Under the pieces are notes generated by a model. It saw nothing but the letters and a program-made list of their open reading frames with translations, had not been told where the DNA came from and did not search any database. From the NCBI RefSeq assembly GCF_024437655.1, contig NZ_JANBVF010000013.1, forward strand, positions 127,548 to 151,547: a stretch of DNA of 24,000 bases. The letters run 5' to 3'. The translations under genes were made by a program, and so were the position numbers. Positions within the stretch are counted from its first letter, which is position 1, and each line of letters starts with the position of its first letter. This document shows, one piece after another, positions 11,734-18,543 of the stretch. Source of the stretch: Chitinolyticbacter albus (lineage in GTDB: Bacteria > Pseudomonadota > Gammaproteobacteria > Burkholderiales > Chitinibacteraceae).

Positions 11734-11758
11734 GACGCTGCCGTAAGCCGGCTGTGAA
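11734..11758 (-). promoter_or_regulatory. Candidate ECF-sigma promoter P(rebB): TTCACA-N15-CGTC
   Basis: The minus strand reads acgTTCACAgccggcttacggcagCGTCcct. The putative -10 lies 50 nt upstream of the rebB copy 3 ATG. This is one of five identical-format motifs in the locus. Confidence 0.6.
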
Positions 11759-11760
11759 CG

Positions 11761-12306
11761 TCAGGATGCGGGGCCCGGATCGGTCGACGCGGGCGGTGTG
11801 GCAGCGTCCTGCTGCTTGGCCAGGCGGGCGATCACCGCCTGCAGCTCCTGCGACAGCGGCCCGAAATACTGGTTGAAGCACGCTTCAACCTCCTGCTTGG
11901 CAAGGCCGGCAAGCCGGTCGGCGATCTGCGATAGCACCATCTGCGCGCCACCCGGCTGCGCGCCGGGTTGCAGCGTGGATGGGCGCAGATCGGCCAGCGT
12001 GCGCGCGCCGTCCACCAGCTTCAGGATCGCCGCTTCCTCCTGGGCCTGCTGTTGCAGTGCCTGGCCGGTGCTGGCCTGTATCGTTTGCAGGGTGTCGCGC
12101 ACGCTGGCTGTCGCCCGGGCGCGGCTGGCATCGACGGTCTGGGCCGCCTGTTGCTTCAGTTGCGCCCCGGCGTCCTGCTGCGTCAAGCCTTGCTGGAAGG
12201 CGAGCAGGCGCTGCGCCTCCGCGCCTTCCAGCGGCCGCTGCAGCCAAGCCTCGGCCAGCTGTTGCAGGTCCGGATGCAATATCGGGGCGGGGCCGGCTTC
12301 AGACAT
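11761..12306 (-). CDS. Gln/Ala-rich helical (coiled-coil-like) protein, unknown function, R-body locus
   Basis: 181 aa from the ATG at 12306 (MSEAGPAPILHPDLQQLAEAWLQRPLEG...), with a GGAG SD. The start overlaps the stop of the upstream 73-aa ORF (ATGTCTGA). The longer track ORF (from 12447) has an implausible Arg/Trp-rich N-terminus. Confidence 0.6.
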   Translation of the reverse strand: MSEAGPAPILHPDLQQLAEAWLQRPLEGAEAQRLLAFQQGLTQQDAGAQLKQQAAQTVDASRARATASVRDTLQTIQASTGQALQQQAQEEAAILKLVDGARTLADLRPSTLQPGAQPGGAQMVLSQIADRLAGLAKQEVEACFNQYFGPLSQELQAVIARLAKQQDAATPPASTDPGPAS

Positions 12307-12520
12307 GCTGCGCTCCGCTCGTGGCTGCGTTGTCGTGCGGCAGTTCAGCCACGATGGGTGCCAGCGCGCTGCGTGCCGTTGCCAGCGCCTGGGCGAGACG
12401 GGCGTACTCGGCGTCGCTGCCGTCAGGCTCCGACTGGCCCAGTGCATGGGACCACTCGTTCAGGCACTGCGCCAGCAGCTGCTGCAGGCCGGCATAAAGG
12501 GAAACCAGATCGTCTTGCAT
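12299..12520 (-). CDS. Small helical protein (73 aa), unknown function, R-body locus
   Basis: MQDDLVSLYAGLQQLLAQCLNEWSHALGQSEPDGSDAEYARLAQALATARSALAPIVAELPHDNAATSGAQHV. An AGGAG SD lies 8 nt upstream of the ATG at 12520, and the TTCACA-N15-CGTC motif is 56 nt upstream. Confidence 0.55.
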   Translation of the reverse strand: MQDDLVSLYAGLQQLLAQCLNEWSHALGQSEPDGSDAEYARLAQALATARSALAPIVAELPHDNAATSGAQHV

Positions 12521-12575
12521 GGACACGCTCCTGATGGATGTCGGGGAATCCTGCGCAAGGCAGGGACATTGTCTG

Positions 12576-12600
12576 GACGTGGCGGCGGCCCATTTGTGAA
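12576..12600 (-). promoter_or_regulatory. Candidate ECF-sigma promoter: TTCACA-N15-CGTC
   Basis: The minus strand reads ctcTTCACAaatgggccgccgccaCGTCcag, upstream of the 73-aa/181-aa gene pair. Confidence 0.6.
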
Positions 12601-12879
12601 GAGGGCCCGTGTCAGCGGCGGAGATCGGCGCCGGCCGCATTTTCAGCAACGTCGACGGCCGTGTCCAAATGGGGGACGCTGCACTCCGGGCGCGTGGGGG
12701 TGATGACGCCCGGCCCGTCGTCCTGCTTGGGTGGCATGGCCGGTATCTGTAGGGGTACCGGCAGAGGGCTGTCGGCGGCAGCGGTACCAGCCAGCCTGAA
12801 ACTGCCGCGAGCGCGAGTTCCAAGCCGGCGGTGGTCAGGATTGGGGCGGGGCGTCATCGGCGTGAGGTACGCCGCAGGT

Positions 12880-16325: not shown

Positions 16326-17060
16326 TTATCCGCGCTGAGCAATCTGCTGTAGTTGCGCAAGATCGTGAAATATCAGCAAAGGCGGTCGACGAAGCATCAG
16401 CCCTTGTCGCTGCCAGAGCTGGAGCTGGGCATTGAGCTTGGGTCTGCTGACGTTGATCCTGGCCGCCAGGATGCTCTGGCTGGTGGGGAGTGGAATGGCT
16501 ACTCCGTTATCCTGAAGGCAGCCCTTACAATCGATTTCCAGCAGGAAGTGCCGCGCCAGTCTCGCTTCCAGCCGATGCAGCGAGATCGATTCGATGAATT
16601 CGTGCGCATGTCGCAAGCGATTGCACAACAGCTGCTGCACCCTGAGCCGGAAGTGCGCTTCGCCATTGAGCCTGTCGAAGTGGCGTGCATGGAGCAGCAG
16701 CAACTGGGACGGCTCGGCGGCGAACGCGGAGCTGCTGTGGGCTTGGGGATCGAACAGCGCGGTTTCTCCCAGCAGATCGCCGTAGCCGCTGCAGCGGTGG
16801 ATCACTTCCCGGCCATCGGGCCCTTGCAGCACATGATGGACGCAGCCACTGAGCACCAGGGCGATGAACTGTTCGGGCTCCCCTTGCTGATACAGCACCC
16901 GCCCCGTCTGGCCTTGCCAGATCTGGCCGTTGCCCGATACATAATCGACGAACTCGTCCGGTAGCCCGGCCAGCAGCGGAATATGGCGCAAGGGGCACCG
17001 TGGCTGCGGCTTGCCTGATTGGGTGGCACCTTTGTGAGCCGCGACGCTGTTCAGGTTCAA
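16326..17060 (-). CDS. Crp/Fnr-family transcriptional regulator (cNMP-binding-like domain plus C-terminal HTH)
   Basis: 244 aa. The beta-roll region is LLAGLPDEFVDYV...GRVLYQQGEPEQFIALVLSGCVHHVLQGPDGREVIHRCSGYGDLLGETALFD. The C-terminal HTH is SQSILAARINVSRPKLNAQLQLWQRQGLM. The start is a TTG preceded by a strong SD (AGGGAAGGAA, 7-nt spacing), and there is no in-frame ATG nearby. Confidence 0.8.
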   Translation of the reverse strand: MNLNSVAAHKGATQSGKPQPRCPLRHIPLLAGLPDEFVDYVSGNGQIWQGQTGRVLYQQGEPEQFIALVLSGCVHHVLQGPDGREVIHRCSGYGDLLGETALFDPQAHSSSAFAAEPSQLLLLHARHFDRLNGEAHFRLRVQQLLCNRLRHAHEFIESISLHRLEARLARHFLLEIDCKGCLQDNGVAIPLPTSQSILAARINVSRPKLNAQLQLWQRQGLMLRRPPLLIFHDLAQLQQIAQRG

Positions 17061-17186
17061 TCGATATTCCTTCCCTGGCGACAGTCATACATGCCTGTCT
17101 TTTGTCATCCGCCTGACCGCTGCGAGCGGGGTGGAAACAGGTGGGTGCTGGGTTGAAGACGGTGAAGACGCGGGGGAGGGGGCCGA

Positions 17187-17831
17187 CTAGGACTCCGGGT
17201 CGCCGTCCGGTTTGCCGCGGGCCGCGTTGGCGGGGACGATGCCACTGGTATATTCGTCGATGATGCGCATCAGCCCTTCCGGCGGCGTCAGGGCAACGAA
17301 ATCGAGCGTGATATCCATGGTGCGGTGTTCACGCTCGCTACCAGGCGGCGTACCGCCGCGGGGCGCCATGGAGACGGTGAAGCGGCTGCGACCGTGGCTG
17401 GCGTCGTCGAAATGGTGGGCCTCGTCGATCCAGGCGGTATCGTCGGTGCGCACCGAAAGCTCGACTCGCATCCGTTCCATGGCCATGCCGCGCGGCGTCA
17501 TCAGTGCAATCAGCGGCAGCATCAGGACCTGGCCGTCTGCCATGGCCATGGTCACGAGCTTGGGTTGCAGTGAGCCGTCCGGGCGCGTGTCGAAGAACTG
17601 CTGCAACACCGCCGTGTACTGGTGGGCAACGATCTGGTTCGCCGCTGCGGCGGCATGTTGTAGACCTCGCGTGATATCGCTCAGCGACATGCCGTTGAAG
17701 GCGACGTCGCCGCCATCGTCATCGCTGTCGGTGGGCGAGCCCGGCGGAGGCGCCGCGCTGCCAGGCGTTGCGCTCTGGAGGGGCGCGTTTGCGCGCTCGG
17801 GCACGCGGCGCTTGCGGAAGATCTGCCACAT
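17187..17831 (-). CDS. DUF2589-like protein, paralog B
   Basis: 214 aa with an acidic/Pro-rich N-terminus. The core LSDITRGLQHAAAAANQIVAHQYTAVLQQFF ... VLMLPLIALMTPRGMAMERMRVELSV ... PPEGLMRIIDEY is collinear with the upstream paralog. The family name is from memory of the DUF2589 pattern. It starts 3 nt after the stop of paralog A. Confidence 0.6.
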   Translation of the reverse strand: MWQIFRKRRVPERANAPLQSATPGSAAPPPGSPTDSDDDGGDVAFNGMSLSDITRGLQHAAAAANQIVAHQYTAVLQQFFDTRPDGSLQPKLVTMAMADGQVLMLPLIALMTPRGMAMERMRVELSVRTDDTAWIDEAHHFDDASHGRSRFTVSMAPRGGTPPGSEREHRTMDITLDFVALTPPEGLMRIIDEYTSGIVPANAARGKPDGDPES

Positions 17832-17834
17832 CGC

Positions 17835-18470
17835 TCAGGAGGCCGAGCTGGTCTGGCTGTCGGTGCCAAGAACAGTGGCCGGCAGCGGCAGCATCCTATC
17901 CTTGTTGTTCGGCAGCAGCGCGGGCTTGGTCGCGGCATCGGTGAGAAAGTCGATCACGCGTTGCAATGCCTCAGGCGCAGGCTGGCGCGCCAGGCGCGTA
18001 TGGATCGAATACTTGGCGCTGGTATCGGTCTTGCGCGTCTGCTCCGCCTTGTGGGAAACCCGGCCGTGAATCGCCACGTTGAAAGGCCCCCAGCCCAGCT
18101 TGGCCTCGATTCCGGCCTCTGCGTCGGTGCTGTGGCTTTCCATTGCGCTCTGCGATACCGTCAATTCAAAATCCACCGTGCCTTCCTCGATACAGATCAC
18201 CGGGTGGACCACGGCTGCCATCAAGGGCACGCGCATCGTCTTTTGCAGCACGCCTTGGGCGTTGCCCGCTTCGTCGAGCACGGTTTCCTCGTAGTCGAAC
18301 TGGACGGCCACCGCCTTGCCGTCGCGTATGCACACGGACAGCAGGAAATCGGCGTAGGCCTTGGATGCCTGGACCTGGGCGGTGATCATCGCCTGCAGCG
18401 GTCCGCCTATCATCTTGTCGAGCGGCAACGCATTGAGCACGGAACCGACGAAGCTGGGATCGAGCGCCAT
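17835..18470 (-). CDS. DUF2589-like protein, paralog A
   Basis: 211 aa: LPLDKMIGGPLQAMITAQVQASKAYADFLLSV ... MRVPLMAAVVHPVICIEEGTVDFELTV ... APEALQRVIDFL. The TTCACA-N15-CGTT motif lies 49 nt upstream of its ATG. Confidence 0.6.
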   Translation of the reverse strand: MALDPSFVGSVLNALPLDKMIGGPLQAMITAQVQASKAYADFLLSVCIRDGKAVAVQFDYEETVLDEAGNAQGVLQKTMRVPLMAAVVHPVICIEEGTVDFELTVSQSAMESHSTDAEAGIEAKLGWGPFNVAIHGRVSHKAEQTRKTDTSAKYSIHTRLARQPAPEALQRVIDFLTDAATKPALLPNNKDRMLPLPATVLGTDSQTSSAS

Positions 18471-18518
18471 CGCATTTCTCCTGAACGCCGGGCAAGCGTT
18501 TGCCCCGATGCTTGCTGG

Positions 18519-18543
18519 AACGCGGACGTCGGGATCTTGTGAA
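18519..18543 (-). promoter_or_regulatory. Candidate ECF-sigma promoter: TTCACA-N15-CGTT
   Basis: The minus strand reads gtaTTCACAagatcccgacgtccgCGTTcca, upstream of the DUF2589-like pair. Confidence 0.6.

What the first reader, a model, noticed from the sequence alone, without database searches (positions are those of the whole stretch)
11734..18543. Five identical-format promoter-like motifs TTCACA-N15-CGT(T/C) define a locus-wide regulon
Reading the minus strand, the same bipartite motif occurs at five sites: 18543..18519, 15618..15594, 14523..14499, 12600..12576 and 11758..11734. All five are on the coding strand of the locus and all are intergenic or at gene ends. The CGTY element lies 49-81 nt upstream of a start codon at every site. 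The downstream units are the DUF2589-like pair, the short reb plus PAT-rich gene, the papain-fold/117-aa/lysozyme unit, the 73-aa/181-aa pair, and rebB x3. Nine fixed bases should occur by chance well under once in 48 kb of two-strand sequence, and I found no extra copies elsewhere in the window. The format (xxCAC, about 16 nt, CGT) fits the AAC-N16/17-CGT architecture of ECF sigma promoters. The locus-encoded ECF sigma factor is therefore the obvious candidate reader. This would tie the lysis genes and the unknown genes into one regulon with the R-body structural genes.
Basis: seen in the sequence. Interest (0 to 1): 0.85.

Follow-up and report, generated by a model that had tools for sequence, protein, structure and literature searches.

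The report
ECF-sigma promoters of an R-body locus
Five matching promoter sequences in this R-body gene cluster are real, are conserved in about 80 related bacterial clusters, and are most likely read by the cluster's own sigma factor, whose gene appears to be switched on by the neighbouring Crp-type regulator.

Summary
TTCACA-N15-CGTY occurs exactly five times, all on the minus strand and all intergenic, 48-80 nt before start codons, against 0.08 expected.

In 80 orthologous reb loci from beta- and gammaproteobacteria, the motif occurs 151 times on the sigma-gene strand and 4 times on the other. It is essentially confined to N15 spacing. It is 61 times denser inside reb clusters than in their flanks. 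It precedes rebD-like genes, rebP/rebB arrays and, in most loci, the Crp-type regulator gene.

In P. aeruginosa it occurs three times, before rcgA, rebD and rebP1. The rebP1 copy lies inside the published PrebP1 reporter fragment, which needs FecI2 and RcgA.

The motif has no dyad symmetry. It persists in loci that lack the Crp-type gene, so the sigma factor, not the Crp-type protein, is the likely reader.

New here is a conserved Crp/Fnr-format dyad (TGTCACCTGAGTAACA, 16269..16254) upstream of the sigma gene at class II activator distance. This suggests a regulator-to-sigma cascade with feedback.

I found no earlier description of either element. The published FecI2 motif is different (AT-rich). 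This is a new member of a known kind and of moderate interest.

The parts
18519..18543 (-). Promoter P1, TTCACAAGATCCCGACGTCCGCGTT. It lies upstream of the DUF2589 pair and may read through into the Crp-type gene.
   Evidence: Exact motif. Matrix score 20.5. 48 nt to the ATG at 18470. No terminator-like hairpin before the Crp-type gene.
15594..15618 (-). Promoter P2, TTCACAGGCAGCGATCCACGGCGTT. It starts 11 nt after the sigma stop codon and lies upstream of the rebD-like and rapA-like genes.
   Evidence: score 22.5, the top hit. The equivalent site is present in essentially all 80 orthologous loci and in P. aeruginosa.
14499..14523 (-). Promoter P3, TTCACAACTTGATTTTCGTTTCGTT. It lies upstream of the 214-aa, 117-aa and GH24 lysozyme unit.
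   Evidence: This is the weakest of the five by matrix score (14.2). The lysozyme is confirmed by Pfam PF00959, E 4e-52.
12576..12600 (-). Promoter P4, TTCACAAATGGGCCGCCGCCACGTC. It lies upstream of the 73-aa and 181-aa pair.
   Evidence: score 21.0. The motif also precedes p73 and p181 homologues in several loci.
11734..11758 (-). Promoter P5, TTCACAGCCGGCTTACGGCAGCGTC. It starts 2 nt after the 181-aa stop codon and lies upstream of the three rebB (rebP-like) genes, and probably the genes that follow.
   Evidence: score 22.3. The equivalent site precedes the RebB array in 63 instances. It corresponds to PrebP1 of P. aeruginosa.
16254..16269 (-). Crp/Fnr-format dyad TGTCACCTGAGTAACA, in the AT-rich spacer between the Crp-type gene and the sigma gene. 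Proposed binding site of the Crp-type (RcgA-like) activator.
   Evidence: Unique in the window. The spacer has GC 0.40. The same dyad lies within 250 nt upstream of sigma in 68 of 80 loci, with only 8 matches elsewhere in 1.44 Mb. It tracks the presence of the Crp-type gene.
16227..16232 (-). -10-like hexamer CATTCT, 21 nt after the dyad. This places the dyad centre at about -41.5.
   Evidence: Conserved cA(g/t)(a/c)CT block at the same offset in the dyad-anchored profile of 67 unique contexts. Inferred, not mapped.
15630..16193 (-). ECF (group IV) sigma factor, 187 aa, orthologue of P. aeruginosa FecI2. Proposed reader of P1-P5.
   Evidence: Pfam regions 2 and 4. TIGR02937 above cut-off. 48% identity to the P. 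aeruginosa protein, E 1e-51.
16326..17060 (-). Crp/Fnr-family regulator, 244 aa, orthologue of RcgA.
   Evidence: cNMP_binding plus HTH_Crp_2 domains. 45% identity to P. aeruginosa RcgA, E 2e-58.
17187..18470 (-). Two DUF2589 genes (18470..17835 and 17831..17187), the P1 unit.
   Evidence: PF11655, E 1e-22 and 6e-12.
14555..15513 (-). rebD-like short RebB gene (15513..15277) and PAT-rich rapA-like gene (15229..14555), the P2 unit.
   Evidence: PF11747, E 3e-26. The PAT-rich protein is 61% identical to P. aeruginosa RapA. Gene order matches PA14.
12880..14431 (-). 214-aa protein (14431..13787), 117-aa protein (13744..13391) and GH24 lysozyme (13317..12880), the P3 unit.
   Evidence: Faint YaeF/papain-like hint for the 214-aa protein.
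11761..12520 (-). 73-aa (12520..12299) and 181-aa (12306..11761) genes, the P4 unit.
   Evidence: p181 homologues occur in 49 loci.
10604..11684 (-). Three RebB-family (rebP-like) R-body structural genes, the P5 unit.
   Evidence: PF11747, E 1e-27 to 2e-29.
8527..10561 (-). 139-aa membrane protein, PHB-esterase-like 352-aa protein and 179-aa protein. They have no promoter motif of their own and are probably co-transcribed from P5.
   Evidence: No matrix hit upstream of them. In 11 other loci the membrane-protein/esterase pair has its own motif.
8485..8505 (-). Terminator-like hairpin that closes the locus.
   Evidence: It is the only strong terminator-like site on the minus strand in 8300..19300; one weaker 5-pair hit lies just beyond it at 8465..8449.

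Best explanation
The five TTCACA-N15-CGTY sites are the -35 (TTCAC) and -10 (CGTY) elements of promoters recognised by RNA polymerase carrying the locus-encoded ECF sigma factor, the orthologue of P. aeruginosa FecI2. Transcription should start about 7-10 nt downstream of CGT.

Together they make one regulon of five units: the DUF2589 pair; rebD-like plus rapA-like; the 214-aa/117-aa/GH24 lysozyme unit; the 73-aa/181-aa pair; and three rebB genes with the downstream membrane-protein and esterase genes.

The sigma gene has no such promoter. It sits behind a conserved Crp/Fnr-format dyad (TGTCACCTGAGTAACA) centred about 41.5 nt upstream of the predicted start of a sigma-70-type promoter. So the neighbouring Crp-type regulator (RcgA orthologue) most likely activates sigma synthesis as a class II activator.

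In most related loci the ECF-type motif also precedes the regulator gene, which closes a positive feedback loop. In this window the regulator gene lacks its own motif and would be reached by read-through from P1.

Shown here: the motif, its statistics, its conservation and its position. Inferred: who binds it, where transcription starts, the class II geometry and the feedback.
For: There are five exact sites against 0.08 expected, at one spacing and on one strand.

The sigma is ECF-type.

In 80 orthologous loci there are 151 hits on the sigma strand and 4 on the other at N15, and only about 1 at most other spacings, 21 at N16. Of 258 relaxed instances, 224 lie within 400 nt upstream of co-oriented reb-locus genes: 77 before rebD-like, 63 before the RebB array and 59 before the Crp-type gene. 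Enrichment inside clusters over flanks is 61-fold.

The consensus TTCAC(A/G)A-N14-CGT(T/C)CnT has no flanking conservation and no symmetry.

The motif persists in loci without the Crp-type gene.

P. aeruginosa has exactly three sites in 20.6 kb, before rcgA, rebD and rebP1. PrebP1 activity needs FecI2 and RcgA (PMC8322103). FecI2 ChIP and RNA-seq flag PA14_27680 and fecI2 (PMC4362757).

The dyad lies upstream of sigma in 68 of 80 loci and occurs only 8 times elsewhere. It stays with the sigma gene in three different gene arrangements. A conserved -10-like block lies at class II distance.
Against: There are no transcription start or expression data for this organism.

The window's Crp-type and sigma genes lack the motif, so classic ECF autoregulation is not directly evident here.

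The FecI2 motif published from PA14 is AT-rich and did not flag the reb promoters. I read that as an iron-box artefact, but it formally disagrees.

The joint absence of the dyad and the Crp-type gene in four loci could reflect one deletion of adjacent DNA rather than functional coupling.

P3 scores clearly lower than the other four sites.
Confidence: 0.8

Rival explanations
1. The motif is the operator of the locus-encoded Crp/Fnr-type regulator (RcgA orthologue) and not a sigma recognition site. The regulator would then activate each unit directly.
For: The half-site TTCACA resembles the TCACA half of the CRP consensus. RcgA is required for PrebP1 activity in PA14. The regulator gene is present in 70 of 80 loci.
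Against: The motif has no dyad symmetry and no second half-site in conserved flanks. It is strictly strand-oriented, 151 vs 4, which is unlike dimeric Crp-family sites. It persists in loci without the regulator gene. A separate, truly palindromic Crp-format dyad exists and is confined to the sigma gene's upstream region.
Confidence: 0.05
2. The sites are genuine ECF-type promoters but are read by another sigma factor of the host genome, not by the locus-encoded one.
For: Many ECF sigma factors share xAC-N16-CGT-like promoters. No direct sigma-promoter assay exists for this organism.
Against: The motif travels with this sigma gene across beta- and gammaproteobacteria and is about 61 times rarer in flanking DNA. 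Deleting fecI2 abolishes PrebP1 activity in PA14, and that fragment contains the motif.
Confidence: 0.07
3. The pattern is a chance or compositional coincidence picked out after the fact.
For: Counts of 5 or more are common among all possible bipartite patterns in this GC-rich window.
Against: The pattern-specific probability is about 4e-3 after correction. Independent recurrence in 80 loci at the same positions relative to orthologous genes cannot be chance.
Confidence: 0.01
4. The conserved bases act at the RNA level, as a 5'-UTR element bound by a protein or forming a structure, and not as a DNA promoter.
For: The sites are strand-specific and lie upstream of start codons, as a leader element would.
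Against: The two blocks are not complementary and the spacer is not conserved. The distance to the start codon varies from about 40 to 170 nt while the internal spacing is fixed. No Rfam family matches. Several sites begin 2-11 nt after the preceding stop codon, which is typical of internal promoters.
Confidence: 0.02

Closest known systems
P. aeruginosa PA14 reb cluster regulation by RcgA (PA14_27700) and FecI2 (PA14_27690) (Wang et al. 2021, PMC8322103)
   Same: The genes are orthologous and in the same order: Crp-type regulator, ECF sigma, rebD, rapA, then rebP genes. The same promoter motif and the same dyad occur in the P. aeruginosa locus. The experimental requirement of both regulators for PrebP1 fits the cascade proposed here.
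   Different: The paper defines no cis-elements. This window has extra regulon units: a DUF2589 pair, a lysozyme unit, and membrane-protein and esterase genes. It has three rebP-like genes rather than two. It has no motif directly upstream of the regulator gene.
Canonical ECF sigma promoters (AAC-N16/17-CGT class, e.g. B. subtilis SigW TGAAAC-N16-CGTA, PvdS TAAAT-N16-CGT; from general knowledge)
   Same: The -35 and -10 elements are bipartite, with a fixed gap of 16 nt between xAC and CGT. The -10 is CGT(C/T). The promoters lie next to the sigma gene and serve a small, dedicated regulon.
   Different: The -35 core is TTCAC(A) rather than GGAAC or TGAAC, that is CAC instead of AAC. No anti-sigma factor gene is evident. 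The sigma gene is not directly preceded by its own promoter type in this window.
Class II CRP/FNR-dependent promoters (site centred at -41.5; from general knowledge)
   Same: It is a 16-bp dyad of TGT-N10-ACA format, with a -10-like hexamer about 21-22 nt downstream and a Crp-family gene in the locus.
   Different: The half-site is TGT(C/T)AC rather than CRP's TGTGA or FNR's TTGAT. Binding and start site are untested.
FecI2 binding motif of Schulz et al. 2015 (PMC4362757)
   Same: It concerns the same sigma factor family member. Their ChIP and RNA-seq place PA14_27680 and fecI2 in its regulon.
   Different: Their de novo motif is described as AT-rich and iron-box-like. It did not flag the reb promoters, which are listed as 'ChIP / RNA' without 'motif'. 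The GC-neutral TTCAC-N16-CGT motif found here is a different sequence.
ECF237 group, co-encoded with RebB 'killing trait' proteins (Casas-Pastor et al. 2021, PMC7826278)
   Same: An ECF sigma gene neighbours several RebB-family genes.
   Different: ECF237 is described as mainly from Bacteroidetes. I could not test whether this proteobacterial sigma belongs to that group, and no promoter is given in the text I read.

Membership tests
ECF (group IV) sigma-dependent promoter | Bipartite -35/-10 with an xAC-like and a CGT-like element separated by a fixed 16-17 nt | tested here: met
   TTCAC-N16-CGT occurs at one spacing only in the window and across 80 loci.
ECF (group IV) sigma-dependent promoter | Located upstream of, and co-oriented with, the regulated genes, in non-coding DNA | tested here: met
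   All five sites are intergenic, 48-80 nt before start codons. 224 of 258 orthologous instances lie within 400 nt upstream of co-oriented reb genes.
ECF (group IV) sigma-dependent promoter | A cognate group IV sigma factor gene co-occurs with the motif | tested here: met
   TIGR02937 at 45.6 bits against a 42.9 cut-off, with regions 2 and 4 only, 187 aa. The motif is 61-fold enriched next to orthologous sigma genes.
ECF (group IV) sigma-dependent promoter | Transcription starts a few nt downstream of the -10 and depends on the sigma factor | not testable with these tools
   Only indirect support exists. The PA14 PrebP1 fragment that needs FecI2 contains the motif in a PA14-type locus.
ECF (group IV) sigma-dependent promoter | Autoregulation: the sigma operon is preceded by its own promoter type | tested here: inconclusive
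   No motif lies upstream of the sigma or Crp-type genes in the window. A motif precedes the Crp-type gene in 59 orthologous instances. In the window only read-through from P1 could provide this.
Class II CRP/FNR-type activator site | Palindromic 16-bp site of TGT-N10-ACA format | tested here: met
   TGTCACCTGAGTAACA is unique in the window. The same format occurs in 68 of 80 loci upstream of sigma.
Class II CRP/FNR-type activator site | Site centred near -41.5 relative to the transcription start | tested here: inconclusive
   A conserved -10-like hexamer 21-22 nt downstream implies -41.5 or -42.5, but no start site is mapped.
Class II CRP/FNR-type activator site | Bound by a Crp-family protein | not testable with these tools
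   Co-occurrence counts are 63 loci with both, 4 with neither and 1 with the dyad only. This is confounded by physical adjacency.
FecI-type iron-starvation sigma factor | Reaches the FecI family score and is linked to FecR-type anti-sigma and TonB-dependent receptor genes | tested here: not met
   NCBIfam FecI equivalog scores 30.2 bits against a 260 cut-off. No FecR-like or receptor gene is present in the locus. The name FecI2 is historical.
R-body (reb) locus | Several RebB-family (PF11747) genes clustered together | tested here: met
   Four PF11747 proteins, with E values from 3e-26 to 2e-29.

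The most novel reading that the evidence does not exclude
The Crp-type regulator and the ECF sigma factor activate each other's genes, through the dyad upstream of sigma and the ECF-type promoter upstream of the regulator. 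This would form a bistable switch that commits a rare subpopulation to R-body production. Because a GH24 lysozyme unit and a possible papain-like hydrolase carry the same promoter, the committed cells would also be programmed to lyse and release the R-bodies. This would explain the stochastic PrebP1 expression (0.26% of cells) seen in PA14.
Probability: 0.4. Interest if true: 0.65.

Novelty: new member of a known kind. Interest (0 to 1): 0.48.

Why it matters
R-bodies contribute to P. aeruginosa virulence and host colonisation. Their genes are known to need RcgA and FecI2, but the DNA elements through which these act were not defined in anything I could find. The one published FecI2 motif does not match the reb promoters.

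A precise and widely conserved promoter consensus, plus a candidate activator site, has four uses:
- It delimits the regulon, which includes lysis enzymes and DUF2589 proteins of unknown role.
- It allows genome-wide prediction of further targets.
- It predicts a mutual-activation circuit that could explain why only rare cells make R-bodies.
- It provides exact bases to mutate in experiments.

It could also supply an orthogonal sigma/promoter pair for synthetic biology.

Tried and rejected
- **Crp half-site idea.** I looked for an inverted partner and for conserved flanks around the motif and found none. Rejected.
- **Longer repeat.** I aligned the five sites with 120-nt flanks and found no shared sequence. 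Rejected.
- **Known RNA family.** The Rfam scan found only a tRNA at 1637-1718.
- **Extra weak sites.** A matrix scan and a one-mismatch search found nothing upstream of the Crp-type, sigma, membrane-protein or esterase genes. The plus-strand hit at 17328 is of the TTCACG...CGTA type, which behaved as chance in the orthologues.
- **Raw-count significance.** The max-count statistic over all patterns is uninformative in GC-rich DNA, so I replaced it with a pattern-specific corrected probability.
- **PA14 transcription start sites.** The supplementary tables of Schulz et al. are truncated for this region, so I could not map starts.
- **Pseudomonas sp. PIC25 and P. indica loci as stand-ins for PA14.** They lack an adjacent rebP array, so I fetched a P. 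aeruginosa contig instead.
- **ECF group assignment.** The ECF-hub classification was not available to the tools.

Full report
**Observation.** An exact search for TTCACA-N15-CGTY returns five matches. All are on the minus strand, at 18543..18519, 15618..15594, 14523..14499, 12600..12576 and 11758..11734. Dinucleotide-preserving shuffles give 0.08 expected. No spacing from 12 to 19 other than 15 gives a hit, and the five sites account for every TTCACA on the minus strand of the window. One mismatch adds only two sites outside the locus, within chance expectation.

All five sites lie between genes, 48-80 nt before a start codon preceded by a ribosome-binding sequence. Two of them begin 2 and 11 nt after the previous stop codon.

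Alignment of the sites with their flanks shows no similarity beyond the motif, so they are not copies of a repeat. No Rfam family overlaps them.

One caveat: a count of five is not unusual among all possible bipartite patterns in this 63% GC window. The correct statistic is pattern-specific. All five TTCACA are followed by CGT at one offset, with P about 7e-10, or about 4e-3 after correcting for 5.8 million patterns.

**Genes.** Reading the minus strand, the locus encodes the following:
- two DUF2589 proteins
- a Crp/Fnr-family regulator
- a two-domain sigma factor
- a short RebB-family protein
- a PAT-rich protein
- 214-aa and 117-aa proteins
- a GH24 lysozyme
- 73-aa and 181-aa proteins
- three RebB proteins
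- a 139-aa membrane protein
- a PHB-esterase-like protein
- a 179-aa protein

The only strong terminator-like hairpin on that strand closes the locus at 8505..8485; a weaker 5-pair hit lies just beyond it.

The sigma passes the NCBIfam ECF superfamily model and falls far below the FecI model. The sigma, the regulator and the PAT-rich protein are 48%, 45% and 61% identical to P. aeruginosa FecI2, RcgA and RapA. The gene order matches the PA14 reb cluster. The source is probably Chitinolyticbacter albus.

**Comparative test.** Using an alignment of sigma homologues, I fetched 80 loci from Chromobacterium, Paraburkholderia, Burkholderia, Trinickia, Lysobacter, Dyella, Marilutibacter and Pseudomonas. 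Each is oriented on the sigma gene.
- TTCACA-N15-CGT occurs 151 times on the sigma strand and 4 times on the other. Spacings 13, 14, 17 and 18 give about one hit each, and N16 gives 21.
- The slightly relaxed TTCAC-N16-CGT occurs 258 times. Of these, 224 lie within 400 nt upstream of a co-oriented homologue of a window gene: 77 before the rebD-like gene, 63 before the RebB array, 59 before the Crp-type gene and 11 before the membrane-protein/esterase pair. Others precede the DUF2589, lysozyme and 73/181-aa genes.
- The remaining instances are partly chance-like (TTCACB...CGTA/G) and partly upstream of accessory genes.
- The strict motif is 61 times denser inside reb clusters than in the flanking 977 kb.
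- The position matrix gives TTCAC(A/G)A-N14-CGT(T/C)CnT, with a weak A preference about 10 nt after CGT. There is no conserved flank and no symmetry.

**Link to experiment.** A P. aeruginosa contig with the PA14-type cluster contains exactly three motif copies in 20.6 kb, all on the reb strand. They lie 73 nt before rcgA, 79 nt before rebD (inside the end of fecI2) and 53 nt before rebP1.

The last copy lies within the 500-bp fragment used as the PrebP1 reporter, whose activity is abolished by deleting fecI2 or rcgA (PMC8322103). FecI2 ChIP-seq and RNA-seq placed PA14_27680 (rapA) and fecI2 in its primary regulon, but not through the authors' motif, which they describe as AT-rich and iron-box-like (PMC4362757).

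I found no paper that defines these cis-elements.

**Who reads the motif.** The alternative reader is the Crp-type protein. Four points count against it:
- The motif is asymmetric and strictly oriented.
- Its internal spacing is fixed while its distance to the start codon varies.
- It persists before rebD and rebP in Pseudomonas loci that have no Crp-type gene within 10 kb.
- A separate, genuinely palindromic site exists elsewhere.

**A second element.** The spacer between the Crp-type and sigma genes is the most AT-rich part of the locus, with GC 0.40. It contains TGTCACCTGAGTAACA at 16269..16254, which is unique in the window.

The same TGTNNC-N4-GNNACA dyad lies within 250 nt upstream of the sigma gene in 68 of 80 loci, with only eight matches elsewhere in 1.44 Mb. 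One-mismatch variants occur in the Paraburkholderia loci.

The dyad stays upstream of sigma whether the regulator gene is immediately upstream (Chromobacterium, Pseudomonas), divergent (Burkholderia) or downstream of the RebB array (Lysobacter).

About 21-22 nt downstream is a conserved cA(g/t)(a/c)CT block. In the window this is CATTCT at 16232..16227. Read as a -10 hexamer, it puts the dyad centre at -41.5 or -42.5.

Presence of the dyad tracks presence of the regulator gene: 63 loci with both, 4 with neither and 1 with the dyad only. However, the four loci with neither are truncated islands, so physical linkage may explain this.

**Model.** The Crp-type regulator activates the sigma gene from the dyad. 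The sigma then directs transcription of P1-P5.

In most loci the sigma also drives the regulator gene, giving mutual activation. In this window the regulator gene has no motif but follows the DUF2589 pair without a terminator. P1 may therefore supply it.

This cascade explains why both regulators are required for PrebP1. It also offers a reason for the stochastic expression reported in PA14.

The steps from sequence to binding, start sites and feedback are inferred.

**Verdict.** This is a conserved, dedicated ECF-type promoter set for a known R-body regulatory pair, together with a newly noticed activator site. It is a new member of a known kind, and its value is mainly that it makes R-body regulation and its regulon precisely testable.

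Noticed in passing
window 16254-16269 (dyad) and 16227-16232 (-10-like), minus strand: A Crp/Fnr-format palindrome, TGTCACCTGAGTAACA, lies in the AT-rich spacer upstream of the sigma gene. It is conserved in 68 of 80 orthologous loci, with a conserved -10-like block at class II distance.
   Followed up: yes
window 17040-17260: Unlike 59 orthologous instances, the Crp-type regulator gene here has no TTCAC-N16-CGT promoter of its own. The DUF2589 pair, which lies downstream of sigma in Chromobacterium, sits upstream of it here with P1.
   Followed up: partly
window 17328-17355, plus strand: A relaxed motif match (TTCACGCTCGCTACCAGGCGGCGTACCG, matrix score 14.0) lies antisense inside the second DUF2589 gene. 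It is probably chance, but it scores about the same as P3.
   Followed up: partly
window 18837-18911 and 18965-20535: A hipB-like (88 aa, HTH) and hipA-like (435 aa) toxin-antitoxin pair lies on the plus strand. It diverges from the reb locus. Two AAATCC-N12-GGATTT inverted repeats sit in the AT-rich region upstream and look like HipB operators.
   Followed up: no
window 12601-12879: A 279-nt stretch between the lysozyme stop codon and P4 has no convincing gene. In Chromobacterium loci the lysozyme gene is followed almost directly by the promoter.
   Followed up: no
window 1637-1718, plus strand: A tRNA gene (Rfam RF00005, 57 bits).
   Followed up: no
L035, L064, L066 (about 9600-10000): In these Pseudomonas loci the reb island begins right after a tRNA gene and lacks both the Crp-type gene and the dyad. 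It still keeps the ECF-type promoters before rebD and rebP. How sigma is expressed there is unclear.
   Followed up: partly
L081 14840-14895 (P. aeruginosa): A GC-rich hairpin followed by a T run (gcgccccgcctcgcggggcgcttgcatttt) lies just upstream of the rebP1 motif. This suggests that PrebP1 is an insulated, independent promoter.
   Followed up: no
window 15630-16193; literature: The sigma orthologue is named FecI2 in P. aeruginosa, but it scores 30 bits against the FecI model (cut-off 260) and has no FecR or receptor neighbours. The published AT-rich 'FecI2 motif' does not match the reb promoters.
   Followed up: partly
   Followed up: partly
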